The position numbers and the translations under genes are program-made. A stretch of DNA of 64,000 nt from a virus (taxonomy: Duplodnaviria > Caudoviricetes): the IMG/VR virus record IMGVR_UViG_641201351_000001, positions 32,001-96,000 of that record, one strand, 5' to 3'. Of this stretch, positions 29,701 to 48,787 are shown in pieces. Position 1 is the stretch's first letter. Each line of letters opens with the position of its first letter. The notes beneath the pieces are model-generated. The model was not told the DNA's origin. It searched no databases and saw only the letters and a list, made by a program, of their open reading frames with translations.

Positions 29701-29740
29701 AAAAAGAAAATGCCCCCCAACAAATGGGAGGCATTTTTTT
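29701..29740 (-). terminator. Terminator after the major capsid gene
   Basis: AAAATGCCCCCCA/TGGGAGGCATTTT inverted repeat flanked by A and T runs. Confidence 0.8.
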
Positions 29741-31168: not shown

Positions 31169-31203
31169 ATTTGTTTTACCTCCTCTTCAAATCATATAAT
31201 AGC

Positions 31204-32838: not shown

Positions 32839-33098
32839 TATAGTTTTTCGTTATAGAATTTTTTAGCTTCTTGCAAAAGAAGCTCAAAAAACCAGCCTTC
32901 AAAGGTATCAAGGTGAAAATAATCTAAAATTTCTTCTTCTTTAATGTCAAACAATTTTATTGTGTCAATAAAAGCTTTTACTGCTTCATCAATAAGTCTT
33001 TGTTTTTCTTCTTTGTCGTCTGTGTTTTCAGCTTCTTGAAGTCTAGATTTCATAAATAGCGTTGTGATGGCTGCAATAAGTTGTTTACTCAGCTTCAT
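32838..33098 (-). CDS. Hypothetical head-module protein
   Basis: 86 aa, coupled to both neighbours. Confidence 0.65.
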   Translation of the reverse strand: MKLSKQLIAAITTLFMKSRLQEAENTDDKEEKQRLIDEAVKAFIDTIKLFDIKEEEILDYFHLDTFEGWFFELLLQEAKKFYNEKL

Positions 33099-36000
33099 TT
33101 TCTTTCTCCTTTTTCAAAGCGAGTTTATAATCTTCTATTAGTCTTTTTATTATCGGGTAGTAAGTTGGATACTTGTTTTTGAATTCTTCTTCGCCATAAA
33201 GGAAGTAAAATTCTAAAGAAGTTGAAGGTACTTCAATGATATTAAAGAAAGAATAAAAGTTCATTATCTCATACTCTTTCATCATTTCTTCTAATTTTGA
33301 TTCAAATTCTTCGCCCATTTCTGATATTTTTTTCTGGGCATCTTTTAGAAAGCTGTAGTAATTCGAGTAAAGAACTTGAAGATCGCTACTTAAACTTGTT
33401 GATGTTAGTTGGATTTTACCTAGAATGTTTTTATCTAATCCTAATTCTTCTGATGCTCTTTTTGTAAACTCAACTATTCTTGGCCTTTGATGTCTAAGGA
33501 AAGTCAAAACAATAAATTCTGGGATTTCTTCAGACAACTTTTTGATTTCGCTAGAATCAAAATTTTTTCTTTCAATTTCCTTTTCAATAATATTTTCTAT
33601 TGTATCATATTCGTCTATTTCTACATCATAGTCTTCTGATGAGTAGTTTTCTGTTGTGTCATCTTTTCTTTGTACCAAATCTTTTATATGACGATATGCA
33701 CTCGCTAACGCATGTCCTATTTCGTGCATCAAAGTAGCAGTAAAAGGCGTAACTACTTTTATATACCTATCTTTTTCTTTTTTCTCTAGTGATATTTCTT
33801 TTTTATCCTCAATAATTGCGTCAATTGTTCCTTTTTTATCTAAAGAAGCACTTTCAAGCGATCTCAACATCATGCTAATAGACGGCCTTTGAAGATGTTG
33901 TTTTAATAGGTAGGCTATAGGATTGATATTAATTGTGTTTCCTGACGCATAATACCAACCATTTGGATTAATGACGACATTGATATACTTTTCAGATATT
34001 TCTTTAACAAAATTAAACCAATCTTCGCCTAATATAGGCTTCACTTTGTCTAAAAACTTACTAAACATTAGAGAAGACATTGGTGTATCAAAAGGAGAGT
34101 AGTATCCTACCATGGAATCTACAAGGTTTTGCGCATTGACAGATTCTGGAGGTGGAGGAGTTGTTCTTATACTTTCTTCATCAGATAAAGCGATTGAGCT
34201 TTTTCCTTCTGCTGAAAGTTCAATTGCATTTTTTATTAGAAGTTCTACGAAACGATTTTTTTCTATTTTTCCTTCAAACCACTTAAAAAATTTGTTGAAA
34301 GTTAATCTTTCTTTTAAATTTCCTTTTGTTTCTTCTATGAAGTAGTTAAAGGATTCCAATTCCTGAATAATTTCTTTTTCGCTTTTTCCAATTGAATAGA
34401 AATATTCAACAAGCGCATGCATGTATACATGAAAACCTAAATCTCTTACTGAAACTTTATAGACATTTTTTCCGATTCTAACTTTTGCTGACAATTCTAG
34501 TCCTCTTATGTCGTCATTAGCAGAATAGTCAACAACTTCAAAATCTTGCAAAGACAGCCTTATTTTGTCTAAGGTTTTCATCTTTTCTTTTGATGAAAGC
34601 GCCTTTCTTAGCTCATGAATTTTGCTTGAAACAAAGCCTTCTAAAGCCTTGCTTATAGCGCTCTTATCTCCTGATAGAAAATAAGCTCCTCCTCTACCGA
34701 TGAAAGCTAAGGTCATCGCTTGAAGATCGCTTGGAGTCAAGAAATTTGGACTGTTTAACTTGTGAGTAAATATATGATCCAAACTTCTTAAAGCAAGCTC
34801 CTTAGGAAGAATTTCTAAAAGTCCATATGTTTCAGGAGTTCTTTTATCTAAAAGTTCTTCAAGCGTTTTTTCAAAGAAAAATTCCTTCATTTCTTCAATG
34901 TCAATTAGATTATAAAAATCCTCAGAATTCTTTCTTGAAGAAAACTCAGGAGAAGAAATTCTCACTTTTAATACAGGTTTTCCTAATAGATTTACAACTC
35001 TTATAAAGTCTAATTTTTGATCGTTACTAATAAAGCTAGTTTCATTAGCGCTGTAAAGTGAAAAGATGTTCTTTTCTTCTTTTTCTGCGTAAATCAAGTC
35101 AGAGTTTTCTGATAGTCTTCTCATCGCATCAACAATAATCGCTTTGTATCTAGAAGTTAAGAATGCAGGAAACCTTTTTGGTTTTTCTTTTTCAAAAATT
35201 CCAACCAAGGAGTTTGCAATCAGATTATTTCTCATAGCAAACAAAGATGTGTAGATTTTTTTGTATTCTTTTTGTATCTTACTTATCTCTTCGCTAAAAG
35301 TTTCTAAAGCATTTTTTTCGCTTTCAAAAAGATACATTAAATCTTCTCGTATGAAATATTCTAAGTAATACATCATTGATTCTAGTGATGCGATAGTTCT
35401 TTTTGTAATTCTTCTTTTTGCGTTAATGTCGTTTAACATTTTGTTTATTGACGATACAACATTTTCTATACCTTTTAGAATATCTGCTTTTTGTTCTACT
35501 GAAAGAGATGAAATACTTCTGAGTAGATCAGTAATATTTTGATAAGAATTTAGAATCGCCTCAAAATGTTCACCAGAAGTAATCTTAAAATATTCAGCTA
35601 GTGTTGAAGGATTTGCTAAGTGTGTAAGAAGATTTGCAGCAGCTATTCTATACATCAACTTCTTTTCGCCTGAAGAATTAACTTCTTTTTCAATAATTTT
35701 ATCGTATGCGTAAATCATGTAATCTGTAAAGTCTGCTACTGCACTAATTGCACTAAGATTATTTGGTTCTGCAACATAAGACAAATTTTTTGTAGAAATA
35801 TCTGTAAGAAACTCAACAAATCCTTTTATAAAATCAGCTATCTCAAAAAGCTTCTCTGGATAATCTTCATATTTTTCTAAAAGCGCTTTTATTATTGGAA
35901 AAACTTTTTCTGTTACAAGAGAATCGCTTTTGTTATGATACCTGCTCAATAGTGTGTTTATTATGTCTACAACAAATTTAAGCTCTTGTATATCTTCTGA

Positions 36001-37662
36001 AGGTTTTCTTTGAGAAAATATTTCTAAAACTCTATAAAGATTGTTGTCTTCAAGCATTTCTTTTATTTCTTCAGGATTAAACTGTATTTCTCTAGCCAAA
36101 AGAGAAGTGTCAGTATATTTAGCTAGCTCTGGAGAAATTAAAGTTAAAGCTTTTGCGTCTGCAAGAAGATCAGCTAAATCTGAAGCAACATTGCGATCGC
36201 TGTAAAGATCAAGAAAAAATCTTCTTAGATAGGTTGATGCAGGTATATTTTCTGAAAGTAAGTTTATTTCTTCAGAAAATACATGTTCTATAAAAGTTTC
36301 TTTGTAAGCATTTTCGCTAGGCAGGAAGAAAGACAAAAATAGAATTAGACTATGCACATCATCTTCTTTTAATAAAGGCTCCTTAGAAACAAACGAAATG
36401 ACTTGCTCAGTTGCGAAGTCTAAAAGTTTGTCTAAAGATTCTTTATATCTTGCCTCATGTATTGCTATTTCAACATCGTCAGAAGAGTCGTATAATTCTT
36501 CTAACGAACTTAGATTTTCAATAGCTTTTACTATCAAGTCTTTTAGCTTAAAATAAGAACTTTCTTCTGAAAATTTATCTAAGGACGCAAACAAAACGAG
36601 CGCAGACATTATAACTTCTTCTTTAGAATTTGCAAATTCCTTAAAGGCTTTTTGAATAGTAAGAGGAGCCAATATAGCTTTATCTAGTCTAGGTGTTACT
36701 TCTAGAAGAACTTCAAAAAAAGAACTCAGATAGTTTTTTATGTTTTCTGGAGAATAAAGGTCAAATCCATAAAATTCTTTTCGCAAAAAATTGTTTACAT
36801 CAAGCATTACTTTTATTAGGCTTTTTTTAGACATTAACTCTTCTACTGTAAGCTCTGTGAGCGCTTTTGGAGATAAAGCGTAAATTAAATTTCTCTCTAT
36901 GTCGTAGAGGTCTATGTTAGCTTTTGAAAAGTATATTCCTTTTAACCTGTCTTTGTAGAGGTTATAAAAGGACAAAAACCAGTTAGCGTCAACATCTAAT
37001 TGAGCGCCGTTATATTTTGAAATAACTAAATAAGTGAGAACATTTAAAGCGCCATCAGAAATATCTTTTAAGTAGTTAGACAAAAATTTCTTTAGCTCCT
37101 GAAAAGCGCCTTCCTTCTTAAATACAAATGTTATATCTTCTTGACCTATAAAATCGTACTTATTTAAATAGCCCCTTTCTAGCAAAAATCCGATTGCTAA
37201 AGAAGTCATTAAAGTGAAAAATCCTGATATCTGTTTAGTTCCACTAGGAACTTCCCAATTTTCATCAATTCCTAAAATATTGTTCAATTCAATTAGATTG
37301 CCTTCGCTAGCGTCTATGTCAAAGATGCTTTCGTCTAGCTTTTCTATAAATTCTTCCAAATAGCTGCTTTCTTCTTCTTTTTCAGGTTCCTGAAAACTTT
37401 CTTCTCTGTAGCTTTCATAGACTTGTTGTTTTTGCGCAATTTGATATTTTTGCGCATATTTTTCGTATTCTTCGAGTATCCAATTTGAATCAGGTTGATT
37501 AACGATAACGCCGTTCTTAGGTTTAATTACTTGTCCTTCAAAAAATACAAAAGTAGTAGGATAGTCTTTGTGATAAAGAACAAATCCTTCAGGAACTCTT
37601 TTTACAACATCATAATCTTTTTCTGTTGTAATAGGACCAGTTATTGAATAAAAAGTGCCCAT
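33085..37662 (-). CDS. Giant protein (about 1525 aa) with C-terminal zincin motif
   Basis: TLMHEIGHAL plus downstream E..S..LEFY..YP..Y. Start at TTG 37668 or ATG 37662. Confidence 0.8.
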   Translation of the reverse strand: MGTFYSITGPITTEKDYDVVKRVPEGFVLYHKDYPTTFVFFEGQVIKPKNGVIVNQPDSNWILEEYEKYAQKYQIAQKQQVYESYREESFQEPEKEEESSYLEEFIEKLDESIFDIDASEGNLIELNNILGIDENWEVPSGTKQISGFFTLMTSLAIGFLLERGYLNKYDFIGQEDITFVFKKEGAFQELKKFLSNYLKDISDGALNVLTYLVISKYNGAQLDVDANWFLSFYNLYKDRLKGIYFSKANIDLYDIERNLIYALSPKALTELTVEELMSKKSLIKVMLDVNNFLRKEFYGFDLYSPENIKNYLSSFFEVLLEVTPRLDKAILAPLTIQKAFKEFANSKEEVIMSALVLFASLDKFSEESSYFKLKDLIVKAIENLSSLEELYDSSDDVEIAIHEARYKESLDKLLDFATEQVISFVSKEPLLKEDDVHSLILFLSFFLPSENAYKETFIEHVFSEEINLLSENIPASTYLRRFFLDLYSDRNVASDLADLLADAKALTLISPELAKYTDTSLLAREIQFNPEEIKEMLEDNNLYRVLEIFSQRKPSEDIQELKFVVDIINTLLSRYHNKSDSLVTEKVFPIIKALLEKYEDYPEKLFEIADFIKGFVEFLTDISTKNLSYVAEPNNLSAISAVADFTDYMIYAYDKIIEKEVNSSGEKKLMYRIAAANLLTHLANPSTLAEYFKITSGEHFEAILNSYQNITDLLRSISSLSVEQKADILKGIENVVSSINKMLNDINAKRRITKRTIASLESMMYYLEYFIREDLMYLFESEKNALETFSEEISKIQKEYKKIYTSLFAMRNNLIANSLVGIFEKEKPKRFPAFLTSRYKAIIVDAMRRLSENSDLIYAEKEEKNIFSLYSANETSFISNDQKLDFIRVVNLLGKPVLKVRISSPEFSSRKNSEDFYNLIDIEEMKEFFFEKTLEELLDKRTPETYGLLEILPKELALRSLDHIFTHKLNSPNFLTPSDLQAMTLAFIGRGGAYFLSGDKSAISKALEGFVSSKIHELRKALSSKEKMKTLDKIRLSLQDFEVVDYSANDDIRGLELSAKVRIGKNVYKVSVRDLGFHVYMHALVEYFYSIGKSEKEIIQELESFNYFIEETKGNLKERLTFNKFFKWFEGKIEKNRFVELLIKNAIELSAEGKSSIALSDEESIRTTPPPPESVNAQNLVDSMVGYYSPFDTPMSSLMFSKFLDKVKPILGEDWFNFVKEISEKYINVVINPNGWYYASGNTININPIAYLLKQHLQRPSISMMLRSLESASLDKKGTIDAIIEDKKEISLEKKEKDRYIKVVTPFTATLMHEIGHALASAYRHIKDLVQRKDDTTENYSSEDYDVEIDEYDTIENIIEKEIERKNFDSSEIKKLSEEIPEFIVLTFLRHQRPRIVEFTKRASEELGLDKNILGKIQLTSTSLSSDLQVLYSNYYSFLKDAQKKISEMGEEFESKLEEMMKEYEIMNFYSFFNIIEVPSTSLEFYFLYGEEEFKNKYPTYYPIIKRLIEDYKLALKKEKENEAE

Positions 37663-37683
37663 ATTCAAAATTTATTTTATCAT

Positions 37684-40600
37684 CTACCTTGTTATCTCTA
37701 CAAAAGCCTTTATAAGTTCGTCTAAAATGAAGGACTCAGAAGCTTCTATGCCAACTCTAGACAAAGCGTCTTTTACTATTTTCTTGAAATCTTCAACGAC
37801 TGAAGTTGATAGGTTGTTTTTATTTATTTTGTATTGATAGGCATCTATCTTGTCAGGAAAATCTAAGCCTTCAATCAAGGAAGACAAGTCTTCTTCGCTT
37901 AAATCATACACAGCAACAATTTTAGGTATTAGCGATTTCGCAAGCTTTTCTTTAAATTTGTTTCCAGAATAACTTTTTATAACATCTTTAGCAAGAACTC
38001 TAAGCTCTTTGTCTTCAGGTCTTTCTTGAAGCACGAATTCTAAAAGCGCATCAAGAATTTCATTTGTATCAGAATAGTAAATTAACCTCTTGTCTTCTGA
38101 AACTCTAGCTTTTTCTTTTTCAATGTTTTCTGCAATTTTTTCAGCTTCTTTGAGGAGTTCTTCATCTTTTTCATAAGGAAGAATAGGAAGGTTGAACTTT
38201 TTTAGCACACGATTTGTCAGACTAACAATCGCTTTATCAGGTGAAATGTTAACCTTTTCTTGTTGTATAAATCCTTGCTCATCTTCTGTCTGAATTGTTG
38301 TTTGTATTCCTTCTTCTGTTACATTCACATCTACAACATCTTTTTTGCCTTTAGGTTTTTTCTTAGATTTTGATTTCTTTTTTTCTTTCTTTCGATTTTC
38401 TTTTTTTGCTTCGCTAGATTTTTGTTGCTCTTCTTGTTGAGCTTCAGTTGTTTCTTCTTCTTGTATAGATTCAGCTTCTGTATTAGGACGCAAAGTATCA
38501 ACAATTGCAAATGCTTCTGCTAAGAAATCTGAAGTCCTAGAATACACCTTTGTCTTTTCGCCTTCTCTGATATAATAAAATCCTCTCTCTCCTAAAGATT
38601 TTTTGCCAAAAGAAAAGTTTTCTAGTGAAAACTCAAAATCGCTTTCAAAAAGCATTCTTGAAAAGTAAGGAAGATAGCCTTCAACATTAGGATTTTCTAA
38701 AGCTGCATAAATAATGAGAAGATTGTTTGAAAACAGAGGATTATCAGTATCGTCTAAAGCTAAATAGTGTTCGTTTTCTTCGCTTTCTGCAAACTTGAAA
38801 GTAGCTACTTCTGGTTTGCCCTTTTCGTCTGTGATGACTTCAAGCGATATCTTATCAGTTAAAGGCATTTCAATATATTCGTTAGATTTTGATATTTTCT
38901 TAAAAAGTTCTGCATATGTTTCGCTTCTAATTTTTCTTTTAATTCTATCGCTAATGTAGCTTTCATCAGAAGTTCTTTGAAGTATTGTTTGAGCAACGCT
39001 TCTAGCTAAAGGATTTTTTGATTGCTTGAAAACTTTTTCAGCAGTTGCACGCAAAGATTCTTTCTTTGTTGAAGATGAATACTCATCTAGAATTTCATAA
39101 GAAACATCAACTAAGCTTTTAAAATCTTCGTCTTCATTGTAAGCTTTTTCAAAATCTACTAGATAAGCGTATGCGTTATCTATACTTACAAAGTAAGGCG
39201 ACACTTTGTCTAAGTTTTTAGGATTAAAGATGCCAAAGTAAATTAAACCTTTTATGTCCTTTTCTACTTCAGGATCAAAATCAACAGCTTGTTGAATCGC
39301 CTCAGCAACATAAGAAATTGTTGAAGGCGAAGAAAAAAGATTTATTAAACTAGAGTAGTACTCTTCTTTTTCATCAGAAAGACTTTTTTCAACTTCTTCA
39401 ACAGCTTCTTTATTTTCTTCTACTAAAACAACCTCGCTAGCTTGTTGTTCAAGGTTTTCTTTAGCGAATTCTTTAGCTTTTTCTCTTTGCTTATCAGAAG
39501 ATGTCTTTTTTGTCTTGTCGGATTTAGCTTTTTTGCTAGAGGCTCTTGTTTCAGTTTTTCTAGCTTCTTCAGAAGCTTCTTCAACTGAAGGAGTAGCTTC
39601 AGGAACTTCCTCAGTTTGAGAAGCTGTTTCAACAGCTTCTTCTGCTCTTGTTTCTTCAGAAGGTGTTTCTTCTTTTTCTTTAATTTTCTTTTTAGCTTTC
39701 TTTTTAGACTTCTTTTTCTCTTTTATTGCCTTGTTAAGTTGTTCAATAGACGAATTTAGAAGCTTTTCTTGCGAAGTTGCTTCAGAAATAGTTTCAAAAG
39801 CTTCATCAACTGCTTTTTTAAACTCTTTTCCTAACTTCTTTAAATCCTCTAGCTGAAGAGTTCCTATAATTTTATCGTTAGATTTAAATGCAAAAGATAG
39901 CTTATTGCCTATCTTTTTAATTTCAACTTCTTTATCTTCGTCTACATAAAGAGTCAAAAATTCGCCCTTATCTAGTGTTTTCTCAAGATTTTCTAGGTCT
40001 TCAAAGGCAACTTCTTTATAACTTACTTTTTCCAAAGGAGCTTCAGGTATTGAAGATGTTTCCTCAGTTAAAGAAGGCTGCTCTTCTTCGCCAATAGCAG
40101 GAATTTCTTCTTCAAAGACAATTGGAGGAGTTTGTGTGTGTATTACATTAGGTGAAAAGTCGTCAAAGAGATATAAAAGATTTTCTTTCGGTACTTTTGT
40201 CTTTAAAATGTTGAAAATCGCATCTTCATAATCTTCAAACTCACTATAAGGTACTATGTCTTCAAACTTATTGGAGAAAGAATACTCTTTTGTGCCGTCA
40301 TATTTACCAAAAACTTCTTTCATGAAGGTATTGATTTTGTAAACATAAGGCGCTGTGCCAAATACAAGTGTGTCTAGGTCTTCTTTTGTTGTTATGTCAG
40401 TAAATATGCTTGAAATTTCTCTCAAAACTTCATTTAATCTTACATTGTCTTCTACGCCTTCAATTTCTTGTTCAAGATAAGTTTCAAGAGGCATTCCTTT
40501 GGCTTGCTCTATCTCGCTAATTTTCTTAGATAGTTCTTCAACATTTGGATTATATTGATCAAAAAGATGATAAGCAACAATTGAGGAAGCTAAATCTCTA

Positions 40601-42918
40601 AATCTGTTTACAAAGCTGTCTAAATAAGATTCTATTTCCCACTCCTTGTTTGGTTCTGAGTGATTTTCGTAGACTATGTTTCCAAACTCATCAGTTTTTA
40701 AATTTTGCGCATTAAAAAGTTTTCCTTCTTTAGGTAGAAAAGCTAAATTTCTAACAGACTCCTTGACTTTACTTAAAAGTGTTGCGTTAAGTCTGTTCGT
40801 GCAAGCTTCTTTAGATTCTCCTTCAGCGCAAACATAGCTATCTATTAATACCTTCAAAGCTTCTGCAAAAACTTGTTTATCAAAATCTCTAACGCTTTCT
40901 GATTTTGCTTTCAGTTGCGTTGAATACCTTTCTTTAACTGCATCTAAGTAAGTTGAAGCTTGATATAAGAGGCCGCTTAATGCACGATCTGTGTCGTCAT
41001 TTAAAACTACCTTTAAAGTTCCATCAAACCTATCAAACATTCCTGCAAGTAGCGCTAAGTTTGCTAGGTTTTCTTCTACATCACCTATTCCTATTTTTGT
41101 TTCAGGTGAGTGATTAATAAGTTCTCTTATAGCAGAAGGAAGATCTTCAAATATTTCTTCTAGTTTTTCTGGTAATCTTATGCTTTTTGATAGTTCTTTG
41201 ATTTGCTGTTCTTCAATTTGTCTTTGTATTTCAGCTTGATTTAAGAGTTCTTCATACTCCTTTTCTTTTTCTGCTAACATTCGCTTGATAAGCGAAGATC
41301 TTACTAAAGGATTAAAGATTTGTTTAGGAAGGTCTTTTTGATCAGCAAGCTTTATTAATTCACTTGTTGTGTGTTGTAAAACTTTGTTTATATTTGGTAC
41401 AAATCTAAAGTAGCCGTGAACAAGCTGAGTTTCGTATTGGGGAAGAAAAGCGTCAATAAAGAAAGCTAAACCCCCTAGCTTATTTTCACAAAGGCTTGAT
41501 GCGCTTCTTGCCTCCTCTTTAAAGGATTGATATCCTCTTTTGGAGTATTCTAAGTCCATGCTGTAAGAAATGCAAAGGTCTTGAAGAATTTCATAAGTCT
41601 TGCCTCTTTTAGAAAAGTCTTTCATTAACTCTAGTGCTTGATAGATATCTAAAGGTTCAAGGCTGTTGTTTAAAGCCAAAAGGCCTGCAAATGTATTTGC
41701 TAAAGCAGTAAGCGTACGCTCAAAGCCTAAAGATTCTACATTTTTCATTAAGGAAGAAAAATTGAAATCAGCAAAAGATTGTCCCAAGAAAAATTGTGTT
41801 ATCTTGTCAATGTGCTCTTTGTAGTCTTCTTGGCTTTTGTCTAGATACTCTATGCTTTCTTGATAAAGTTTTTCAGGCGAAGTTTCTTTTGGTTCTAAAA
41901 CTTTATCAAGCGCTTCATCAATTAACTCTTCTTTAATTTCTTCAGACAAGTCTTGTGCGCTAGCAAAGGTTTCTTTAAATTCATCAAATTTTTCTTTGGC
42001 GAGGTTAACAAGTTTTCCTAAATCTTCTTCATTAAAAAGTCCTCTTAATTCAAATAAAGCTTCTTTTACTTTGTCTAACGCATTTTCTAACTTTTCTAGA
42101 TTGCTTTCTTTGTCTTCATCTAAATCGTTAGGAAAGAATTGCTCTACAAATTCATCAAATTTGCTTTCTATTAACTTTTTATTCGCCTCAGAAATTAGGT
42201 CTTCTAAAGTAAAAAATTCTTTAAGCTCATCTAAGATTTCTTTTGATTTTTTATCAAGGCTTTCATAAAGATCTTTTGCTTCTGAAAGCTTTAGAGGATT
42301 GCCTTCTTTTAATCTTTCTTCTGCTAACTGAGAAATTGCTTCAAGAAGATCATTTTTTATCGCTTGTATTTCTAGCTGCCTTTGATTTTCTAAAACCTCA
42401 GCTTCTTTTGTAGAAATTTCTTTGCTTTCTAGTTCCTCTGATATTTCTTCTAAAGCTTCTGAACCTTCTTTAAGCTGTTCCTCTAAAACATCTACTACTT
42501 CTTCAGTTTTTTCTTCTGCTAACTCTTGTTGTAATTCTTTAATTTCTTCTTGGCGCTCAACAGAAACTTCTTCTTTTTGCTCAGTAGTTTTTTCTTCTAT
42601 CTTTGTTTCTTCTGGTGAAATTTCTTCTTGTTGCAGGTATTGAGAAATGTCTATATTGTATATCTTCGAAATAGTGTTTAATTGTTCCTCATCTAGCGCA
42701 TTACCAAATCTGTTTAAGTATTCTTCAACATCTACTAAGTGCCAACCGTTTTCAGTTTCTATTGCGATACCATGTTTTGTAGTTTTTTGTCCTTGAAAAT
42801 AGACGCTTCTAGTAGGATTAGACTCCTTATATAAAACCTTTCCTTCAGGTACTACCTTTACCTTATCAAAAGGTGAGTTATCAGTATAGGTATTATTGTA
42901 ATCGTATACAAGGCCCAT
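37684..42918 (-). CDS. Giant acidic helical protein (1744 aa), probable internal virion protein
   Basis: Glu-rich coiled coils with Lys-rich patches; TAGAAT 6 nt before ATG. Function inferred. Confidence 0.75.
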   Translation of the reverse strand: MGLVYDYNNTYTDNSPFDKVKVVPEGKVLYKESNPTRSVYFQGQKTTKHGIAIETENGWHLVDVEEYLNRFGNALDEEQLNTISKIYNIDISQYLQQEEISPEETKIEEKTTEQKEEVSVERQEEIKELQQELAEEKTEEVVDVLEEQLKEGSEALEEISEELESKEISTKEAEVLENQRQLEIQAIKNDLLEAISQLAEERLKEGNPLKLSEAKDLYESLDKKSKEILDELKEFFTLEDLISEANKKLIESKFDEFVEQFFPNDLDEDKESNLEKLENALDKVKEALFELRGLFNEEDLGKLVNLAKEKFDEFKETFASAQDLSEEIKEELIDEALDKVLEPKETSPEKLYQESIEYLDKSQEDYKEHIDKITQFFLGQSFADFNFSSLMKNVESLGFERTLTALANTFAGLLALNNSLEPLDIYQALELMKDFSKRGKTYEILQDLCISYSMDLEYSKRGYQSFKEEARSASSLCENKLGGLAFFIDAFLPQYETQLVHGYFRFVPNINKVLQHTTSELIKLADQKDLPKQIFNPLVRSSLIKRMLAEKEKEYEELLNQAEIQRQIEEQQIKELSKSIRLPEKLEEIFEDLPSAIRELINHSPETKIGIGDVEENLANLALLAGMFDRFDGTLKVVLNDDTDRALSGLLYQASTYLDAVKERYSTQLKAKSESVRDFDKQVFAEALKVLIDSYVCAEGESKEACTNRLNATLLSKVKESVRNLAFLPKEGKLFNAQNLKTDEFGNIVYENHSEPNKEWEIESYLDSFVNRFRDLASSIVAYHLFDQYNPNVEELSKKISEIEQAKGMPLETYLEQEIEGVEDNVRLNEVLREISSIFTDITTKEDLDTLVFGTAPYVYKINTFMKEVFGKYDGTKEYSFSNKFEDIVPYSEFEDYEDAIFNILKTKVPKENLLYLFDDFSPNVIHTQTPPIVFEEEIPAIGEEEQPSLTEETSSIPEAPLEKVSYKEVAFEDLENLEKTLDKGEFLTLYVDEDKEVEIKKIGNKLSFAFKSNDKIIGTLQLEDLKKLGKEFKKAVDEAFETISEATSQEKLLNSSIEQLNKAIKEKKKSKKKAKKKIKEKEETPSEETRAEEAVETASQTEEVPEATPSVEEASEEARKTETRASSKKAKSDKTKKTSSDKQREKAKEFAKENLEQQASEVVLVEENKEAVEEVEKSLSDEKEEYYSSLINLFSSPSTISYVAEAIQQAVDFDPEVEKDIKGLIYFGIFNPKNLDKVSPYFVSIDNAYAYLVDFEKAYNEDEDFKSLVDVSYEILDEYSSSTKKESLRATAEKVFKQSKNPLARSVAQTILQRTSDESYISDRIKRKIRSETYAELFKKISKSNEYIEMPLTDKISLEVITDEKGKPEVATFKFAESEENEHYLALDDTDNPLFSNNLLIIYAALENPNVEGYLPYFSRMLFESDFEFSLENFSFGKKSLGERGFYYIREGEKTKVYSRTSDFLAEAFAIVDTLRPNTEAESIQEEETTEAQQEEQQKSSEAKKENRKKEKKKSKSKKKPKGKKDVVDVNVTEEGIQTTIQTEDEQGFIQQEKVNISPDKAIVSLTNRVLKKFNLPILPYEKDEELLKEAEKIAENIEKEKARVSEDKRLIYYSDTNEILDALLEFVLQERPEDKELRVLAKDVIKSYSGNKFKEKLAKSLIPKIVAVYDLSEEDLSSLIEGLDFPDKIDAYQYKINKNNLSTSVVEDFKKIVKDALSRVGIEASESFILDELIKAFVEITR

Positions 42919-42930
42919 ATCTGTATTCTA

Positions 42931-43308
42931 CTATTCGCCTTTTTCTTCTTCTGGTATACAGTAGATTTCTCTTAAAGCAGTAAGTGGATCTTCATCTACG
43001 CCATATTTGCTTAGATATTTGATAGCCAAATCTAAGTGATAACAAGACTGAAACTTATCATCATTTTGCTCAAATTCTACCAAAGCGCTTAGGCCGCTAA
43101 GATATTCAGCGAATTTTTTACCGCTATAATCTTCCTCTAAAGACGGTGTTTTTTCATACAAAACATTAGCCCATTCCCAAGATAAATGTGGTAAAAACAG
43201 CGATAAAAATTTTCCTACATATTCTTTTCTTCTTTCAGTATCCATTTCTTTGCACATTTCAAGAAGTTCTTTGGGCATTTGTTCTTCGTTTGTCATGTTA
43301 TCCTCCAA
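42931..43308 (-). CDS. Hypothetical protein
   Basis: About 120 aa; GGAGG SD favours the second Met (MTNEEQ). Confidence 0.7.
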   Translation of the reverse strand: MEDNMTNEEQMPKELLEMCKEMDTERRKEYVGKFLSLFLPHLSWEWANVLYEKTPSLEEDYSGKKFAEYLSGLSALVEFEQNDDKFQSCYHLDLAIKYLSKYGVDEDPLTALREIYCIPEEEKGE

Positions 43309-46300
43309 CTACTTAACATCTATCTTAACAGGAGTAATGATGTTAGATAAAGCATCGACTACTTTTCTATAGAAGGCTTCTTCCCTTTCTCTCATAATAG
43401 CCTCATATTCTTCTTCCTCGCCTTGTTCAAGAATAGGTGTATTTTGAGCAAGAAGTTTTTGTGTATCAAAGAGTTTTTTAACTTCAAACGACTTCAATCC
43501 TAAAACAGATGCAACACTTTGAGGAAGAATAATTGACGCATCTACTTTACCTTTTTGTTTTCCACCGGGGCGAAAAGCTCTACCTAGCATTTGCAAAATA
43601 GTTTCGTAAGAGAAAGTAGCACCATGAACAACGATTTTTTGTGAAGGCATGTTTACGCCTCTAGCTAACGCTCTTGAGAGAACAGTTATAGAAGGCTTGT
43701 TGTTAGCGTTATGACTTTCAATGATTTTCATTCTATCAGCCATGTCAGTTTCACCAGTAACTGCTCCATTGTAATACCTCTTAAGCGCCTCAACAATGCC
43801 CTTATCGCCAAATAACGGTATCAAATTTCTAAACATTTTTCCTAAAGGCGTATTTTTTCTAATATTGTCAAAAACATAGTCTAAAGACTTTACAAAAGCT
43901 GTGCTAGGAGAAGTAATTAGAATTTTTCGGCCTAAATCTTGAGAAGTTTTACTTGATGTTGCGAATGGCTTCAAAGCTTCTTCTACTACTCTTTTAAATT
44001 GTTCTGTAGTTGCGATTGCGTTGTAAGAAGCTTTATCAAGCTCTTTACCAATCTGTTCGCCAATTGTATCTAGTGTAACATCGTTACCTTCGCTTTGTTT
44101 AATTTGGAAATTTTCATTTAGTGTTCCATCTTCATTTAAAAAAGGCGCTGCCTTAGGATCGTTTCTATCAACAAGTGTTTTTACACCTGTTTGAAGGTCT
44201 TGCTTAGCTAAGCGAATTCTAAACTCACCTTGGGCTGTGTTTTCAATTACTGGATAGTAGAGGTGTTTATCGTCAGAAAGCATAGGTGTAATAAAGAAAG
44301 TGTATTTCATCATTTTGTTTCTCGTTTCAATAGAAATCTTTCTTTCGCTTCCTGTTTTTTGTTTCCTTTGCTCCAATAAGCCGCTAACGCCTGTCCTTCT
44401 TTTCAAGGTTCCAGACATTTCTTGTTCTTTATCAACCTTTTTATTCCAAGCATAACCAGGAAATCTAATCTTAAATCCCTTTTTAAACTTTTGTTGTCTA
44501 TTTTCTCTTGAAGCATTAACATCTACATCAAACTCAATTTCAGCAGAACCAAGGCCGTGAGTTACTACATTTTCAAATCCTAAACTAAGCAAATCAGCAA
44601 ATGTATATTGTGTGTTGCCCAAAGAAATTACAGGAACTTTTGTTGCCAATTCAAGAATTTCTTTCTTTAACTTTGTTTTCTTTTCACCTTCAGCTGTCTT
44701 GTATTCCTTTATTTTGGGAATTATGTGTTTTAAGATGTTGTTGCTGCCAAATCTGTCTAAAATATTTGGACTAACTGACGATAAAGTGTCAACCAAGCTT
44801 CTTATAGCAATTTCTCTAACTGAGGCATTTTTAGGTTTATTTTCTTCGTCAACAATTATGAATGGACCTTCTTCATCAAAGCTAGTAAAACCGTATTCTA
44901 ATGCACGTTCCCAGGTAAAAGCACCACCTTGTACATAACTAAATAAGGTAGCAAAACCAGGCACATACATTTCATAGAACAACTTAGAATCTACTGATTT
45001 TTTTGATCGTGTAACAGGATCATAAATTGTTGTATCTACAGGTCTGTCTTCTTTATATAACTTAGCTATTTGATAAATAGTTGAAGCTACAGTTAAGAAC
45101 ATGTCTTCAAACTTTTGTTTTGCTTTTTCTGGTTCTCTAACTAAAGGATCATCAGAAGATAGTTTTTGTGGATCAGCGGATGAAGTAGGCCATGCTAAAG
45201 GATCATCAGTTTTTATATCAAGAGTAATTCCTTTAAGTTCAAGGTTAGTAGCACCAACAACATCAAGATAAGTTGCAGTAGTTTTAAGCATGTCTTCATT
45301 GATTATTGGTCCACTAGGTGTTTTAATTACAGGATCTCCAAGAATTCTTTTAAATAAATGTCCTTGATAGAACAGCATTTCCATTGCTGAAGAAAAATCT
45401 TTAGGGCTGTTAGACATTGCAGTAGCGTTAAGTAGTAATGTATAACCACGATTTGCGTCAGAAGTTATAGAATCTGATAAATCTTCAATGTGTCTTCTTC
45501 TAGCAGAACTTTTTGAGAAAATTGTAGAAGCTTCGTCTACTAACAACATTCCAAACATTCCGAAAGGAACTGCAAGTCTTTGTCCTTTGTGAGAAATAAT
45601 AGAAGGACCAGAAAGAAGGTTTAAGAAATATTTGTCAGCTTCATCCTCTGCACTAGCAGATTCCATTTTTTGGAATGTAGAAAGCTTCATGATTACCATT
45701 TTGGGAAGATTTACTTTTTCTCCCCTGTTTGCTCTGGCCCACAAATCTAGCAGTTGACTCCATTTTTCTCTTCTTTGCTGAGGATTGCCTTCTATGACAA
45801 ATATTTCTTGACCCACTTTCCAGCCAAACAATGTTTCAGCGTCATCAATCCAGCCTTTTGCAATGGATTCAGGCATTACTGCTAAGGCTGGTCTTTGGTC
45901 AAAAGTAATTGTTTTGTTGTCCCTATTATAAGAAACTGTATGAAGTCCGAGATTTGTTGCTAGTGCGTACGCTAAAAGTCCAGTAAAAGTTTTTCCTAGA
46001 CCAGTAGCGTGCGCAATAAACATTCCTACTTTCTGTAAGTTTTCTAACTTAGAAGTGTGTCTTAGATAATGAGGATGTAAAAACTTAAGAAGCGCTTGAA
46101 CTTGATAAGGCTGCAAAGAAATTTTAGAATTTGCGAACTTTATTCTTTCGTTGTAGGAAATTGGACCAAGTTTAGGAGAATTATATCCTATAATGCCAAA
46201 TTTCTGAAGCAGTAGCGGCATCCACATTAAAGGAAACTTTTCGCCAAAGTTTCCTTTAGGAACAGGTAAAATTTCTTTTTTGTTGCCGTCAATTCTTATT

Positions 46301-47883
46301 AGATTTCCTTTAGCATCTTTTTGTATGTTTAATAAAGACCACAAATCATCAAGTTCTTCTTTAAACTTGCCCCCTTTAACGAAAAGAGAAAATAGCTTTC
46401 TATGATAATCTCTTTCCTCCTCAGGAAATAGTGTGTTAATAACATTAGGATCTTCTTCAGCGCTAGGAATATTTTCTCTTTTACCTCTTTCAAAAACTCT
46501 TGCAGAAATGTCTTTTTTAAGAATTTTTGCGGCCTCTTCAATCGTAGAAGAACTAACTTCTTGATAAAGGGGATGAAGATATTTTTGTTTACCAATAGGA
46601 AGACCAAATATTTTTGCAGTATCATCATCTAGCTTAATGATGTTTCCTGTTGGTATATCTAAAACACCAGCAGGTATTATTGCATTACTGCCTAAAATTT
46701 CTGCCACTAATATATCGATATCTCTTTGTGCAGCGCCTCTTTTGTTTAAAAGTTTTGGATTTTGTATTATTTCGGTGAGAAGATTATCAAGAGCTCTTTC
46801 GTATTCTTCACTATCAATTTTCAACAATCTTTTCAATTCAGTAAACAACGCTTCATTACTAGCACCTTGAGAACGGAGTTTGAGGAGGTTGTCAGAGAAG
46901 AAAACCTCTTTTCCAGAAAACTGATCTTTTGTAGCTAGATAGGTTGAAAGGTTTGTAAGATACTTATTCTCTGGATCGTACACATAAACATAATCAAGGT
47001 TGTTTTTTTGATTTTGTGCAGAAAGTTTCTTTTCTTGTTGCAGATACTTATTTGCATCAGAATCTACTGCTTGAAGCAAGTCTTTCAAGAGCTTTTTCTT
47101 AGCCTCTGTAATTCCTCTAAAATAAACACCTTCTTTTAAAATTTCGTCAATAATGCCTTCGTCTTTTTTATTTTTTTGAAGAGAAGCTTCAATTAGTCCA
47201 GCAACATCTTCTTTGCTAGCCTTTCCTGCTTGAACCTTAGCTAGCGCTTGTGCTGTATTTTTGTTTGCAGGTATGAGCATCCAAGGTTTACCTTCTTCTA
47301 GTTGTTCTACTTTTACACCTAAAAATTTTCCTCCAACTAAAACACGCCCATCCTCAACATTGTAAGCAATATAACCTGCAGGAACTTTTTCTACAACGCC
47401 TTTTTCGTTAGCGAATTGAGAATAGTTGATAGACTTAGTAGTAGCTAAAAGAAGAATATCTTTGCTTCTTTCCTGAAAGCTAAATAGAATGTCCTCAATA
47501 GACTTTATGTAATTTTGCATATTCACACCTTCCTCTTCTGTTTCCAATTTTATATCTTCTAATAGTGAGAGAGATTTTAGCGTTCTGTCTGAAATTTTCT
47601 CTACTTTTTCTATTTTAAATCCGTGCCAAACAAGAATTTGAGGCAAGATAAAAAGCGCCTCTTCTGTTTTTAATTCTACGCCAACAAAAACTTGAATACT
47701 AAAGTGTTTGTTTCTTTTCGCTACAGAATAAAAAATCTCTCTTTCCAATATCTGTTCTAACGCAAACTTAATGTTTTCATTGATTGCCTTAATGTAATAA
47801 TCTTGTATTTTGTTTTTTGCTAGTATAAAGTGAATTTCTGCTTCGTTATCTCCTTGAGAAAGATGATATACAATTTTCTTCAT
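43309..47883 (-). CDS. Giant SF2 (SNF2-like) helicase/ATPase
   Basis: LQPYQ, AHATGLGKT, LLVDEAS, LNAT..SNSP, ARGVNMP and QMLGRAFR. Confidence 0.88.
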   Translation of the reverse strand: MKKIVYHLSQGDNEAEIHFILAKNKIQDYYIKAINENIKFALEQILEREIFYSVAKRNKHFSIQVFVGVELKTEEALFILPQILVWHGFKIEKVEKISDRTLKSLSLLEDIKLETEEEGVNMQNYIKSIEDILFSFQERSKDILLLATTKSINYSQFANEKGVVEKVPAGYIAYNVEDGRVLVGGKFLGVKVEQLEEGKPWMLIPANKNTAQALAKVQAGKASKEDVAGLIEASLQKNKKDEGIIDEILKEGVYFRGITEAKKKLLKDLLQAVDSDANKYLQQEKKLSAQNQKNNLDYVYVYDPENKYLTNLSTYLATKDQFSGKEVFFSDNLLKLRSQGASNEALFTELKRLLKIDSEEYERALDNLLTEIIQNPKLLNKRGAAQRDIDILVAEILGSNAIIPAGVLDIPTGNIIKLDDDTAKIFGLPIGKQKYLHPLYQEVSSSTIEEAAKILKKDISARVFERGKRENIPSAEEDPNVINTLFPEEERDYHRKLFSLFVKGGKFKEELDDLWSLLNIQKDAKGNLIRIDGNKKEILPVPKGNFGEKFPLMWMPLLLQKFGIIGYNSPKLGPISYNERIKFANSKISLQPYQVQALLKFLHPHYLRHTSKLENLQKVGMFIAHATGLGKTFTGLLAYALATNLGLHTVSYNRDNKTITFDQRPALAVMPESIAKGWIDDAETLFGWKVGQEIFVIEGNPQQRREKWSQLLDLWARANRGEKVNLPKMVIMKLSTFQKMESASAEDEADKYFLNLLSGPSIISHKGQRLAVPFGMFGMLLVDEASTIFSKSSARRRHIEDLSDSITSDANRGYTLLLNATAMSNSPKDFSSAMEMLFYQGHLFKRILGDPVIKTPSGPIINEDMLKTTATYLDVVGATNLELKGITLDIKTDDPLAWPTSSADPQKLSSDDPLVREPEKAKQKFEDMFLTVASTIYQIAKLYKEDRPVDTTIYDPVTRSKKSVDSKLFYEMYVPGFATLFSYVQGGAFTWERALEYGFTSFDEEGPFIIVDEENKPKNASVREIAIRSLVDTLSSVSPNILDRFGSNNILKHIIPKIKEYKTAEGEKKTKLKKEILELATKVPVISLGNTQYTFADLLSLGFENVVTHGLGSAEIEFDVDVNASRENRQQKFKKGFKIRFPGYAWNKKVDKEQEMSGTLKRRTGVSGLLEQRKQKTGSERKISIETRNKMMKYTFFITPMLSDDKHLYYPVIENTAQGEFRIRLAKQDLQTGVKTLVDRNDPKAAPFLNEDGTLNENFQIKQSEGNDVTLDTIGEQIGKELDKASYNAIATTEQFKRVVEEALKPFATSSKTSQDLGRKILITSPSTAFVKSLDYVFDNIRKNTPLGKMFRNLIPLFGDKGIVEALKRYYNGAVTGETDMADRMKIIESHNANNKPSITVLSRALARGVNMPSQKIVVHGATFSYETILQMLGRAFRPGGKQKGKVDASIILPQSVASVLGLKSFEVKKLFDTQKLLAQNTPILEQGEEEEYEAIMREREEAFYRKVVDALSNIITPVKIDVK

Positions 47884-48743
47884 AAATCCTCCAAAAACTT
47901 TTCAAGGTTTCTCATGTATGCAAAGACTTTGGGAAACTGCTGCAGATAGTTTCTATGAAAAAAGTAAAAAACAAAAGCTTCTATGAAATCTTCTTTTGGC
48001 CCAAGTGTAGATTCTAAGCTGATAATTTCATCGTTTTCATGGTATAAATTTTTACTCAAATTTAGGCCAAAAAACTCTCCAACCTTCAAATCTTCGTCAG
48101 AAAGTTTTTCTCTTTTCCAGCCCCTCAAAGATATAAATCTTTCAATTTGTTCTGGAAAAGAAGAAGAAAGCTTTTGAAAGGTTATATTTGCAATTTCTCT
48201 TGCAGTAGCCAAAGAAGCTACTGAAATGCCCTGAGTAAAGTTAGGTACTCTTCTAACTACAGGTACAGTCAAGTAAAGGTAGTAAGGTTGAAAGACATGA
48301 AGATAAATTTTGTCATGGGAAAAACTAGAACCTATAATAGCTAAATCAGGATCAAAGTCTACAAGTTCTCTAATCTCACTTTTCTTATGCCAATAAACTT
48401 TTGTGATTTTAAAGAGATTAAACACTACTTCTACTTGCTTAAAAACAGCACGAAGATTTAAAAGCGCATAAAAAGGAATTACATTATCTACTACTAGCGC
48501 CGCAAAACTCAAAAGTTCTTCTTTGTTTAGCCTAGCAACTTTGTTTTCATCAATGTTTCCTTCGTCATCATAAATATCAATAGTAGGATCATAAAACAAA
48601 CCTTGGTCTTTTGCTTCTAATAGCCTTAGCGCTGATAATGTGGAATCGCTAGGCGAATATTGTCCTACTTCATAAAGGTTATTTGAAAAAGGAACTGGGT
48701 AATTGGGGGCTATTAAAGGATTATCTTCACTAATTCTTGCCAC
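47880..48743 (-). CDS. Hypothetical protein with degenerate zincin-like C-terminus
   Basis: AREIAN...PKEDFIEAFVFY...FPKVFAYM; TGTTAAAAT 6 nt before GTG. Confidence 0.65.
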   Translation of the reverse strand: MARISEDNPLIAPNYPVPFSNNLYEVGQYSPSDSTLSALRLLEAKDQGLFYDPTIDIYDDEGNIDENKVARLNKEELLSFAALVVDNVIPFYALLNLRAVFKQVEVVFNLFKITKVYWHKKSEIRELVDFDPDLAIIGSSFSHDKIYLHVFQPYYLYLTVPVVRRVPNFTQGISVASLATAREIANITFQKLSSSFPEQIERFISLRGWKREKLSDEDLKVGEFFGLNLSKNLYHENDEIISLESTLGPKEDFIEAFVFYFFHRNYLQQFPKVFAYMRNLEKFLEDL

Positions 48744-48787
48744 AAGACTATTTTAACACAAGTTAAAAAGGTTTATTTTGCAAGAAA

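What the first reader, a model, noticed from the sequence alone, without database searches (positions are those of the whole stretch)
33085..47883. Three giant proteins upstream of the head genes share an N-terminal VPxG-Y..W domain, a candidate packaging/ejection tag
Seen: the 1527-aa protein starts ..DVVKRVPEGFVLYHKDYPTTFVFFEGQ..NWIL; the 1744-aa protein starts ..DKVKVVPEGKVLYKESNPTRSVYFQGQ..GWHL; the helicase has GVVEKVPAGYIAYNVEDGRVLVGGK..PWML at about aa 162-203, right after TTKS. The rest of the three proteins look unrelated (zincin, acidic coiled coil, SNF2 ATPase). They lie just upstream of protease/scaffold and capsid. Established: P1 DarA/DarB and phage polyvalent proteins combine SNF2 and metallopeptidase domains and are delivered from the head. 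Inference: an injected multi-protein system with a common targeting module.
Basis: partly seen in the sequence, partly recalled or inferred. Interest (0 to 1): 0.8.

Follow-up and report, generated by a model that had tools for sequence, protein, structure and literature searches.

The report
Shared docking domain on giant phage proteins
Four very large proteins of a heat-loving Thermus phage carry the same small, previously undescribed domain, which probably recruits them into the phage head for delivery into the host, although that role has not yet been shown.

Summary
The window is a phiYS40/TMA-type Thermus myophage. gp076 (true start ATG 37662) and gp077 share an N-terminal module of about 70 aa (BLASTP E 4e-9; family profiles P 1e-27). 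A fourth carrier lies outside the window: an 881-aa protein directly after the portal gene. A profile search of 1.84 billion proteins found 28 carriers. All 28 have the module at residues 1 to about 75, and they fall into just these three families. The helicase copy (residues ~159-214) is invisible pairwise. It is recovered by a 31-sequence HMM (E 0.002, next hit E 1.1), by hhalign (85%, P 7e-6, with sliding and shuffle controls), in a divergent relative (E 0.001), and weakly by reciprocal fold search. The module is the most conserved part of each protein, folds as a small beta domain and has no relative in PDB or Pfam. The gene block helicase-078-077-076-075-protease/scaffold-capsid is syntenic in a distant relative. 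The packaging/ejection role is inferred from context and analogy (T4 CTS, P1 DarB, a Thermus phage virion helicase). The two virion-proteomics papers could not be read, and no binding test was possible. I rate it a new variant of a known kind, interest about 0.6.

The parts
37447..37662 (-). gp076 module (residues 1-72 from ATG 37662): conserved N-terminal peptide MGxxY followed by a small beta domain and a short helix
   Evidence: BLASTP E 4e-9 against gp077. AF2 pLDDT 81-92 for residues 20-75. 17 of the 25 invariant positions in the 16 gp076-like proteins lie here. It is the most conserved 50-aa bin (98%) among three phages.
33085..37662 (-). gp076 (YS40_076), 1525 aa from the ATG: module plus a long orphan region plus a C-terminal HExGH region
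33712..33726 (-). HEIGH motif of gp076 (residues 1313-1317), a candidate zincin active site
   Evidence: H, E, G, H are invariant in 16 of 16 family members. All 15 full-length hits have exactly one HExxH, 152-212 aa from the C-end. Pfam gives only sub-threshold hits: MPTase-PolyVal E 0.027 and DUF4344 in 2 of 16 members.
42703..42918 (-). gp077 module (residues 1-72)
   Evidence: 98% conserved bin. Family profile 76 vs 77: 99.8%, P 1.2e-27.
37684..42918 (-). gp077 (YS40_077), 1744 aa, acidic (D+E 0.21), no known domain
47242..47409 (-). Diverged internal module copy in the helicase gp079 (residues ~159-214)
   Evidence: The block N159..K208 is invariant in 7 orthologues down to 28% identity. 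The AF2 model shows the same order of strands and helix. Reciprocal Foldseek ranks are weak.
47524..47883 (-). N-terminal ~120-aa domain of the helicase that precedes the module; it is a separate 123-aa gene in relative L006
   Evidence: BLASTP 35% identity, E 3e-15. ORF layout.
43309..47883 (-). gp079 (YS40_079), 1524-aa SF2/SNF2-like helicase
   Evidence: Helicase_C 26.4 bits (cutoff 23.5); SNF2-rel_dom 20.9 (<24.9); ResIII 21 (<22.5). phrog_16 DNA helicase 1.3e-8.
42931..43308 (-). gp078, small protein (125 aa) between the helicase and gp077, conserved in position in L006
   Evidence: 32% identity to the L006 102-aa ORF, E 6.7e-9.
32838..33098 (-). gp075, small protein (86 aa) between gp076 and the protease; it overlaps both
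   Evidence: An ORF of similar size (98 aa) holds the same position in L006 but shows no detectable similarity.
31204..32838 (-). Prohead protease-scaffold fusion (gp074): conserved protease domain ~1-225, acidic linker, helical C-terminal part
   Evidence: phrog_32465 head maturation protease. Sequence. Alignment with L006.
29756..31168 (-). Major capsid protein (gp073)
   Evidence: phrog_752, E 1.6e-91. 81% identical in L006.
29707..29737 (-). Strong intrinsic-terminator-like hairpin 19 nt after the capsid gene; the only strong one on this strand between 29000 and 48999
   Evidence: 13-bp stem, 6 GC pairs, T run.
47880..48743 (-). gp080 (287 aa), first gene of the tight block; 4-nt overlap with the helicase start; conserved in L006
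   Evidence: 45% identity to L006. A -10-like TAAAAT lies 6 nt before its GTG.

Best explanation
The ~60-aa beta-rich module is a common docking domain. It recruits a set of very large cargo proteins into the assembling head of phiYS40-type phages. The cargo proteins are gp076 (HExGH, zincin-like), gp077 (acidic), the SNF2-like helicase gp079, and an 881-aa protein encoded just after the portal gene. Each cargo would bind through the module to one shared, highly conserved receptor inside the procapsid: the portal, the protease-scaffold core, or the inner face of the capsid protein. The cargo would stay in the head with the DNA and be ejected into the host, where it acts early (anti-defence or takeover). 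Shown here: the homology, the near-exclusive N-terminal position, the extreme conservation, the predicted fold and the head-gene context. Inferred: presence in virions, the receptor, any cleavage, and ejection.
For: (1) All four carriers are homologous in the module and nowhere else. (2) In a profile search of 1.84 billion representatives, 28 of 28 hits carry the module at residues 1 to ~75 (all start at residue 12 or earlier). They fall into only three families: 17 gp076-like, 7 gp077-like and 4 881-like. Full-length members are 871-1985 aa. (3) The module is the best-conserved part of each protein: 98% bins. In 16 gp076-like proteins that are 14-23% identical overall, the only invariant positions are 17 in the module and 8 around HExGH and the C-end. 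The helicase block is invariant down to 28% identity. That level matches the capsid protein (81% identical in L006) rather than the cargo bodies (27-44%), as expected for a domain bound to a conserved structural partner. (4) Context: genes 080-079-078-077-076-075-protease/scaffold-capsid overlap or lie no more than 35 nt apart. No strong terminator occurs until just after the capsid gene. The same order is found in a divergent contig. The fourth carrier overlaps the portal gene by 14 nt. Carriers co-occur on the same contigs in two further lineages. (5) Precedents: the N-terminal 30 aa of P1 DarB target cargo to the capsid, and T4 has a CTS (PMC9024508, abstract and section 31). P1 DarA-Hdf bind the inner capsid surface (PMC12810830, abstract). 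A 1715-aa 'large virionic helicase' and a DarB homologue were found by MS in virions of Thermus phage Lalka27a (bioRxiv 10.64898/2026.04.20.719267, passages). (6) A 125-nm head for a 152-kb genome (PMC10179064 table) leaves room for internal protein by my rough volume estimate (inference). (7) None of the three is a likely tape measure. The tail is 178 nm, and a separate 1032-aa Ala/Gly/Ser-rich ORF and a baseplate cluster lie elsewhere.
Against: I saw no direct evidence that any of the four proteins is in the virion; the proteomics papers on phiYS40 and TMA were not held. No binding test could be run. The helicase copy is internal (after ~158 residues, or ~45 in L006). A cleavable N-terminal signal of the T4 type therefore does not fit; only a folded docking domain does. 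The module is not found on any other cargo outside this phage clade, so there is no 'mobile tag' signature. It resembles no known head-targeting or portal-binding domain or any solved fold. Gene position alone is weak evidence. The 881-aa gene also lies next to a tail-fibre gene. The helicase membership itself rests on profile statistics of moderate strength (85% probability).
Confidence: 0.5

Rival explanations
1. The module is a targeting domain for something in the infected cell, not in the capsid. It would bring several phage effectors to one conserved host structure or to DNA (for example nucleoid, membrane or polymerase). The proteins may or may not be packaged.
For: High conservation fits any conserved partner. 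An accessory binding domain is natural for an SF2 helicase. An internal position in the helicase is unproblematic for such a domain.
Against: The carriers sit in the head-gene block and next to the portal gene, in conserved synteny. The module is at the extreme N-terminus in 28 of 28 relatives. That regularity is typical of assembly or packaging signals and is not needed for a host-binding domain.
Confidence: 0.15
2. The modules bind each other. The four giant proteins form one hetero-oligomeric machine (helicase, metallopeptidase-like, acidic and putative nuclease subunits) that works in the cytoplasm late in infection and is not a virion component.
For: Paralogous domains often oligomerise (general knowledge). 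The four families always co-occur.
Against: Nothing here tests self-association. The context is head morphogenesis, not replication. A virion-borne giant helicase has precedent in a Thermus phage.
Confidence: 0.12
3. The module anchors the proteins to an external or tail structure (capsid decoration, neck, baseplate or fibre), so they are structural appendages rather than internal cargo.
For: The 881-aa gene lies between the portal and tail-fibre genes. Many giant phage proteins are fibres or tape measures (general knowledge).
Against: A helicase and an HExGH protein make little sense outside the particle. No fibre, collagen or beta-helix families were hit. The baseplate cluster and a better tape-measure candidate lie elsewhere.
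Confidence: 0.08
4. Only gp076, gp077 and the 881-aa protein share the module. The helicase segment would then be an unrelated conserved element (for example part of a DNA-binding domain) that resembles it by chance or convergence. This reading can hold together with any of the functional readings above.
For: Pairwise BLAST is not significant. The 2- and 3-sequence HMMs are not significant. Single-family hhalign probabilities are only 7.6-50%. Foldseek E-values are 0.2-0.8. The helicase model has pLDDT 69.
Against: The 31-sequence HMM gives E 0.002 with a clean gap to noise, and this is repeated in a divergent lineage with a leave-out model. hhalign gives P 6.7e-6 with sliding and shuffle controls. 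All three family profiles hit the same columns. Module carriers rank 2, 6 and 38 in BFVD for the helicase model, and the helicase ranks 5 in the reverse search. blastp of the L006 helicase against gp076 gives E 0.008 over 90 aa.
Confidence: 0.15

Closest known systems
Capsid targeting sequences of phage T4 internal proteins and of P1 DarB
   Same: Both are N-terminal elements that direct otherwise unrelated proteins, including the 250-kDa DarB, into the procapsid for delivery to the host. The cargo genes are linked to head morphogenesis (PMC9024508, abstract and section 31).
   Different: T4 and P1 signals are short peptides (more than 9 and up to 30 residues in DarB). Here the shared element is a predicted folded domain of about 55-60 aa plus a conserved MGxxY tip. 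One copy is internal. No sequence similarity was sought or seen. Cleavage is unknown.
Polyvalent proteins of phages and conjugative elements, and MuF-domain head proteins (recalled: Iyer et al. 2017; cited passages)
   Same: Similar repertoire: SNF2-type helicase, zincin-like metallopeptidase, possibly a nuclease. Predicted delivery from the head. The gene after the portal is the usual place of MuF-like proteins (recalled).
   Different: Here the activities are on four separate polypeptides, each with its own copy of a new module, rather than fused in one chain. No MuF domain was detected. MPTase-PolyVal is only a sub-threshold hit (E 0.027).
Large virionic helicase (Lvh) and DarB homologue of Thermus phage Lalka27a
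   Same: Lvh is a giant (1715 aa) SF2-helicase protein encoded among structural genes of a Thermus phage. It was found in virions by mass spectrometry and is presumed to be injected (bioRxiv 10.64898/2026.04.20.719267, passages).
   Different: No homology was shown: tblastn with gp079 finds only TMA and YS40_Isch among 50,697 phage records. No shared N-terminal module is reported in the passages I read.
Ejection and inner-body proteins of phiKZ-like giant phages (SPN3US)
   Same: Many proteins are packaged with the DNA (>40 MDa), processed by the prohead protease and ejected (PMC7411985 and PMC10052503, abstracts in search listing).
   Different: These are different phage lineages with a different protease. 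Paralogy there is among whole proteins, not a small shared tag on unrelated giants. Nothing was tested here.

Membership tests
T4/P1-type capsid targeting sequence (CTS) | Located at the extreme N-terminus of the cargo | tested here: inconclusive
   Met for gp076, gp077, the 881-aa protein and 28 of 28 database relatives. Not met for the helicase (residues ~159-214; ~45-95 in L006).
T4/P1-type capsid targeting sequence (CTS) | Short linear peptide (about 10-30 residues) | tested here: not met
   The conserved unit spans about 70 residues and is predicted as six short strands plus a helix, pLDDT 81-92 over residues 20-75.
T4/P1-type capsid targeting sequence (CTS) | Sufficient to carry a foreign protein into the capsid; in T4 removed by the prohead protease | not testable with these tools
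   Needs virion proteomics, N-terminomics and reporter fusions. The proteomics papers were not held.
MuF-like portal-associated head protein / polyvalent protein | Presence of a MuF (Phage_Mu_F) domain | tested here: not met
   No MuF hit in Pfam scans of gp076, gp077, gp079, the 881-aa protein and 21 relatives.
MuF-like portal-associated head protein / polyvalent protein | Several effector domains fused in one giant polypeptide | tested here: not met
   The helicase motifs, the HExGH motif and the D..ExK motif lie on three different proteins.
SNF2/SF2 helicase (gp079) | Helicase ATP-binding and C-terminal domains above family thresholds | tested here: inconclusive
   Helicase_C 26.4 bits is above the 23.5 cutoff. 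SNF2-rel_dom 20.9 is below 24.9 and ResIII 21 is below 22.5. A GxGKT motif and DEAS box are visible in the sequence. No PDB sequence relative was found with the profile.
Zincin metallopeptidase (gp076 C-terminal region) | HExxH zinc-binding motif conserved, plus a third ligand, with a family HMM match | tested here: inconclusive
   HExGH is invariant in 16 of 16, with one motif at a constant distance from the C-end in 15 of 15 full-length hits. An invariant E1477 is a possible third ligand (inference). HMM support is sub-threshold only, and there is no PDB relative.
P1 DarB | Methyltransferase plus helicase domains; virion location dependent on DarA/Hdf | not tested
   No methyltransferase family was hit in gp079. 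No direct comparison with DarB was made.

The most novel reading that the evidence does not exclude
The module is a new kind of folded capsid-targeting and ejection domain, unrelated to T4/P1 signal peptides and to MuF. Through it, phiYS40-type phages load a 'disaggregated polyvalent' arsenal into the head and inject it with the DNA. The arsenal is an SNF2-like helicase, a zincin-like protein, a giant acidic protein and a putative PD-(D/E)xK nuclease, about 5,700 residues per set. The four modules may occupy equivalent sites on one symmetric receptor such as the portal. If so, the module would be a portable, thermostable protein-packaging tag.
Probability: 0.4. Interest if true: 0.75.

Novelty: new variant of a known kind. 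Interest (0 to 1): 0.6.

Why it matters
Phages are known to deliver proteins along with their DNA. How very large cargo is selected for packaging is understood in only a few cases: T4, P1, and MuF-linked proteins. A small folded domain shared by four otherwise unrelated giant proteins would be a new solution to that problem. It is conserved better than the cargo, and it marks a whole clade of thermophilic phages. It would give a sequence handle for finding injected proteins in uncultured phages. It could also serve as a heat-stable tag for loading foreign proteins into phage heads. Finally, it raises the question of what a helicase, a metallopeptidase-like protein and an acidic giant do together at the start of infection of Thermus.

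Tried and rejected
Literature:
- Naryshkina 2006 (PMC1773054, PubMed 17027029) and Tamakoshi 2011 (PMC3225780) are not held.
- Searches for secondary accounts of phiYS40 virion proteins, or of a shared domain, found nothing relevant (passages).
- Supplements, such as the Lalka27a virion table, are closed.

Binding, expression and earlier findings:
- Sequencing runs: none was listed, and no RNA holder was listed (one search was a length slip).

Fold and family searches:
- Foldseek PDB: best E 3.1.
- ESM Atlas: no usable hit.
- PDB sequence or profile searches with the gp076 C-terminus, the protease, and alignments A2, A5 and A4: nothing meaningful.
- Pfam on relatives: only sub-threshold hits.

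Context of divergent 881-like genes:
- The metagenome and IMG/VR scans returned only close relatives.
- Scans with P0030, P0032 and P0017 found nothing.
- Portal adjacency is therefore shown only in the phiYS40 group.

Other checks:
- gp075 and gp078 are not paralogues of each other, and gp075 has no detectable L006 counterpart by BLAST.
- I rejected gp077 or gp076 as tape measure. By my recalled rule of about 1.5 A per residue they are too long for a 178-nm tail. They also lie in the head block, and other candidates exist.
- One search returned no answer and was repeated.
Full report
WHAT THE WINDOW IS. The region is 91.7% identical to Thermus phage TMA and 85.8% to YS40_Isch. The three giant proteins match single-member PHROG families at more than 3,500 bits. 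The genome held for the window is 152,372 bp. I infer that it is phiYS40 itself, or a near-identical isolate. By the cross-references in the YS40_Isch record, the ORFs are as follows.
- YS40_076: 33085-37668, minus strand.
- YS40_077: 37684-42918.
- YS40_078: 42931-43308.
- YS40_079, 'helicase': 43309-47883.
- Downstream follow YS40_075, a 544-aa head maturation protease (phrog_32465) and the major capsid protein (phrog_752).

THE OBSERVATION. The quoted strings are present. TMA and YS40_Isch annotate the gp076 orthologue from MGTFY. The real start is therefore ATG 37662, and gp076 and gp077 begin alike (MGTFY.., MGLVY..). Their first 73 residues align at 36% identity (48.9 bits, E 4e-9), and nothing else in the two proteins is similar. 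The helicase is a different matter.
- Pairwise, only a 13-residue stretch aligns (E 1.3).
- An HMM of the two N-termini scores it at E 28.
- The same HMM picked up an unexpected third protein at E 0.015. This is an 881-aa ORF at genome 1941-4586 (minus strand), outside the window. It carries VKKVPPGYILLH..W.L near its N-terminus.

WIDENING THE FAMILY. I searched 1.84 billion representative proteins with a profile of the three N-termini. This found 28 proteins at E<=0.001, of which 23 were at E<=1e-10. In all 28 the match starts at residue 12 or earlier and ends by residue 76. By their remaining sequence they fall into three families.
- gp076-like: 15 full-length proteins plus 2 fragments. Each full-length member has exactly one HExxH, 152-212 residues from the C-end.
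- gp077-like: 7 proteins, acidic (D+E >= 0.20), with no HExxH.
- 881-like: 4 proteins.
Full-length members are 871-1985 aa.

In 23 of the 24 gp076-like and gp077-like database proteins, and in phiYS40's own two, the protein starts MG..Y; the one exception starts MPVVY. Family profiles confirm the relationships: 76 vs 77, 99.8%, P 1.2e-27; 77 vs 881, 95%, P 2.8e-8; 76 vs 881, 87%, P 4e-6.

THE HELICASE COPY.
- With the 31-sequence HMM the helicase becomes the fourth-best of 1,067 six-frame ORFs in the genome. It scores E 0.0021 and 13.8 bits, and the next hit is at E 1.1. The alignment covers the whole core of the module.
- Seven helicase orthologues were collected, two of them only 37% and 28% identical. 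In these, the block N159..K208 (EKVPAGYIAYN..G.VL.GGKF..V..E.L..W.L.P) is invariant and is the most conserved part of the N-terminal third.
- hhalign of the module profile against the orthologue profile gives 84.7% probability, P 6.7e-6.
- Of 20 sliding windows along the helicase, only the two that contain the block score 35-37; the other 18 score 6.6-13.5. Thirty column shuffles reach at most 21.9.
- The three family profiles each hit the same columns on their own.
- A model built without the L006 sequences finds the helicase copy in that divergent contig (E 0.0012 among 131 ORFs, next E 0.39).

I therefore accept the helicase as a diverged member, with about 15% residual doubt.

STRUCTURE. 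AlphaFold2 on gp076 residues 1-75 gives pLDDT 77 overall and 81-92 for residues 20-75. It shows six short strands and a C-terminal helix, and the first 13 residues are disordered. The helicase segment (pLDDT 69) shows the same order: strand, strand, strand, strand, [short helix], strand, helix. Fold searches gave the following.
- Foldseek found no solved structure (best E 3.1).
- In BFVD the module hits only its own family: TMA_075, then two 881-aa proteins at E 1.2e-5 and 6.9e-3. The TMA helicase comes fifth at E 0.84.
- In the reverse search, the helicase model finds an 881-aa protein second, TMA_075 sixth and another 881-aa protein 38th, all at non-significant E-values.
The fold evidence is consistent but weak.

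CONSERVATION AND CONTEXT.
- Among the three sequenced phages, the first 50 residues are the most conserved bin of gp076 and of gp077 (98%). Residues 151-200 are a joint-best bin of the helicase (96%).
- Across 16 gp076-like proteins (14-23% identical for the distant ones), the only invariant positions are 17 in the module plus H1313, E1314, G1316, H1317, Y1470, E1477, S1480 and Y1501.
- Genes 080 to 073 overlap or lie at most 35 nt apart. The only strong terminator-like hairpin on that strand between 29000 and 48999 sits 19 nt after the capsid gene.
- A 19-kb IMG/VR contig (L006) from a distant relative has the same order: 080-like, helicase, small ORF, gp077-like, gp076-like, small ORF, protease-scaffold, capsid protein.
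- Between that contig and phiYS40, the capsid protein is 81% identical and the protease-scaffold 41%. The cargo bodies are 27-34% identical or not alignable, whereas the gp076 module is 62% identical.
- The 881-aa gene overlaps the portal gene by 14 nt and is followed by a tail-fibre gene.
- On a 152,804-bp contig from another lineage, a helicase orthologue, a gp076-like protein and an 881-like protein co-occur. In a further lineage, gp076-like and gp077-like proteins share contigs.

MOST LIKELY MECHANISM. I propose a folded docking domain that brings four large cargo proteins to one conserved receptor in the procapsid, so that they are packaged and later ejected.
- Shown here: homology, position, conservation and head-gene context.
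- Inferred: virion location, the receptor, any proteolytic removal, and ejection.
- Precedents read here:
  - The N-terminal 30 residues of P1 DarB suffice for capsid targeting, and T4 has a CTS (PMC9024508, abstract and section 31).
  - DarA-Hdf pairs bind the inner capsid surface (PMC12810830, abstract).
  - A 1715-aa virion helicase and a DarB homologue were found in Thermus phage Lalka27a (preprint passages).
- The 125-nm head for 152 kb (PMC10179064 table) leaves spare volume by my rough estimate.
- Recalled, not seen: the phiYS40 paper identified virion proteins by mass spectrometry, and the TMA paper reported processing by a trypsin-like protease. Either could confirm or refute this reading directly.

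AGAINST THIS READING.
- I saw no virion data.
- No interaction test was possible.
- One copy is internal, and in L006 the ~120-aa domain that precedes it is a separate gene (E 3e-15).
- The module is confined to one phage clade and to four gene families.
- It resembles no known targeting domain.
The rivals are a host- or DNA-targeting domain, a hetero-oligomerisation domain of a cytoplasmic complex, and an anchor to an external or tail structure. I rate each lower, mainly because of the head-gene context and the strict N-terminal position.

COMPARISON WITH KNOWN SYSTEMS. The module would work like a T4 or P1 capsid targeting sequence, but it fails the 'short peptide' feature. It also fails the 'strictly N-terminal' feature for one carrier. 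The cargo repertoire recalls polyvalent proteins, but no MuF domain is present and the activities are on separate chains. The polyvalent-type metallopeptidase model is only a sub-threshold hit (E 0.027, 15 bits against a cutoff of 27.5). The helicase passes the Helicase_C threshold but not the SNF2 threshold. I file it as a new variant of a known kind. The library searches found no description of this shared domain. The two primary papers on these phages and all supplements could not be checked.

Noticed in passing
L003:1941-4586 (-) = genome 1941-4586, outside the window: A fourth module carrier of 881 aa, overlapping the portal gene by 14 nt. Its family has an invariant D752 .. E771-x-K773 .. 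Q782 pattern near the C-end, which looks like a PD-(D/E)xK nuclease signature. No HMM supports this.
   Followed up: partly
L006:835-1206 (+) and L006:1196-5797 (+); window 47524-47883 (-): In a divergent relative, the first ~120 residues of the phiYS40 helicase are a separate 123-aa ORF. It overlaps the helicase ORF by 11 nt in another frame (35% identity, E 3e-15). This could be a gene fusion in phiYS40, a split or frameshift in the relative, or an assembly error.
   Followed up: partly
window 37662-37668 (-): The longest-ORF start of gp076 (TTG 37668) is probably wrong. The orthologues are annotated from the ATG two codons downstream, which gives the conserved MGTFY N-terminus.
   Followed up: yes
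window 42919-42940, 37663-37690, 48744-48790 (-) versus 31169-31190 (-): gp077, gp076 and gp080 have no Shine-Dalgarno sequence. Instead they have -10-like hexamers (TAGAAT, ATAAAT, TAAAAT) 6-7 nt before the start codon, as expected for leaderless transcripts reported for phiYS40 (passage). The capsid gene has a strong GGAGG.
   Followed up: no
window 48788-50740 and 50771-52609 (-): Two tandem paralogues (650 and 612 aa, both phrog_21121, function unknown) lie directly upstream of the block. They do not carry the module.
   Followed up: no
window 24362-25102 and 25104-25754 (-): Another tandem pair of paralogues (phrog_20157) lies just downstream of the tail sheath gene. One has a weak hit to a virion structural protein family.
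   Followed up: no
window 31204-32838 (-): The 'prohead protease' is a fusion. A well-conserved protease domain (~1-225) is followed by a very acidic linker and a helical, scaffold-like C-terminal half that diverges fast.
   Followed up: partly
L010:399-2078 (-) and L010:2957-6052 (-) (genome 118398-120077, 120956-124051): A 560-aa ORF with an HNH/homing-endonuclease match (E 8e-78) lies next to a 1032-aa Ala/Gly/Ser-rich ORF. The latter is a candidate tape measure.
   Followed up: no
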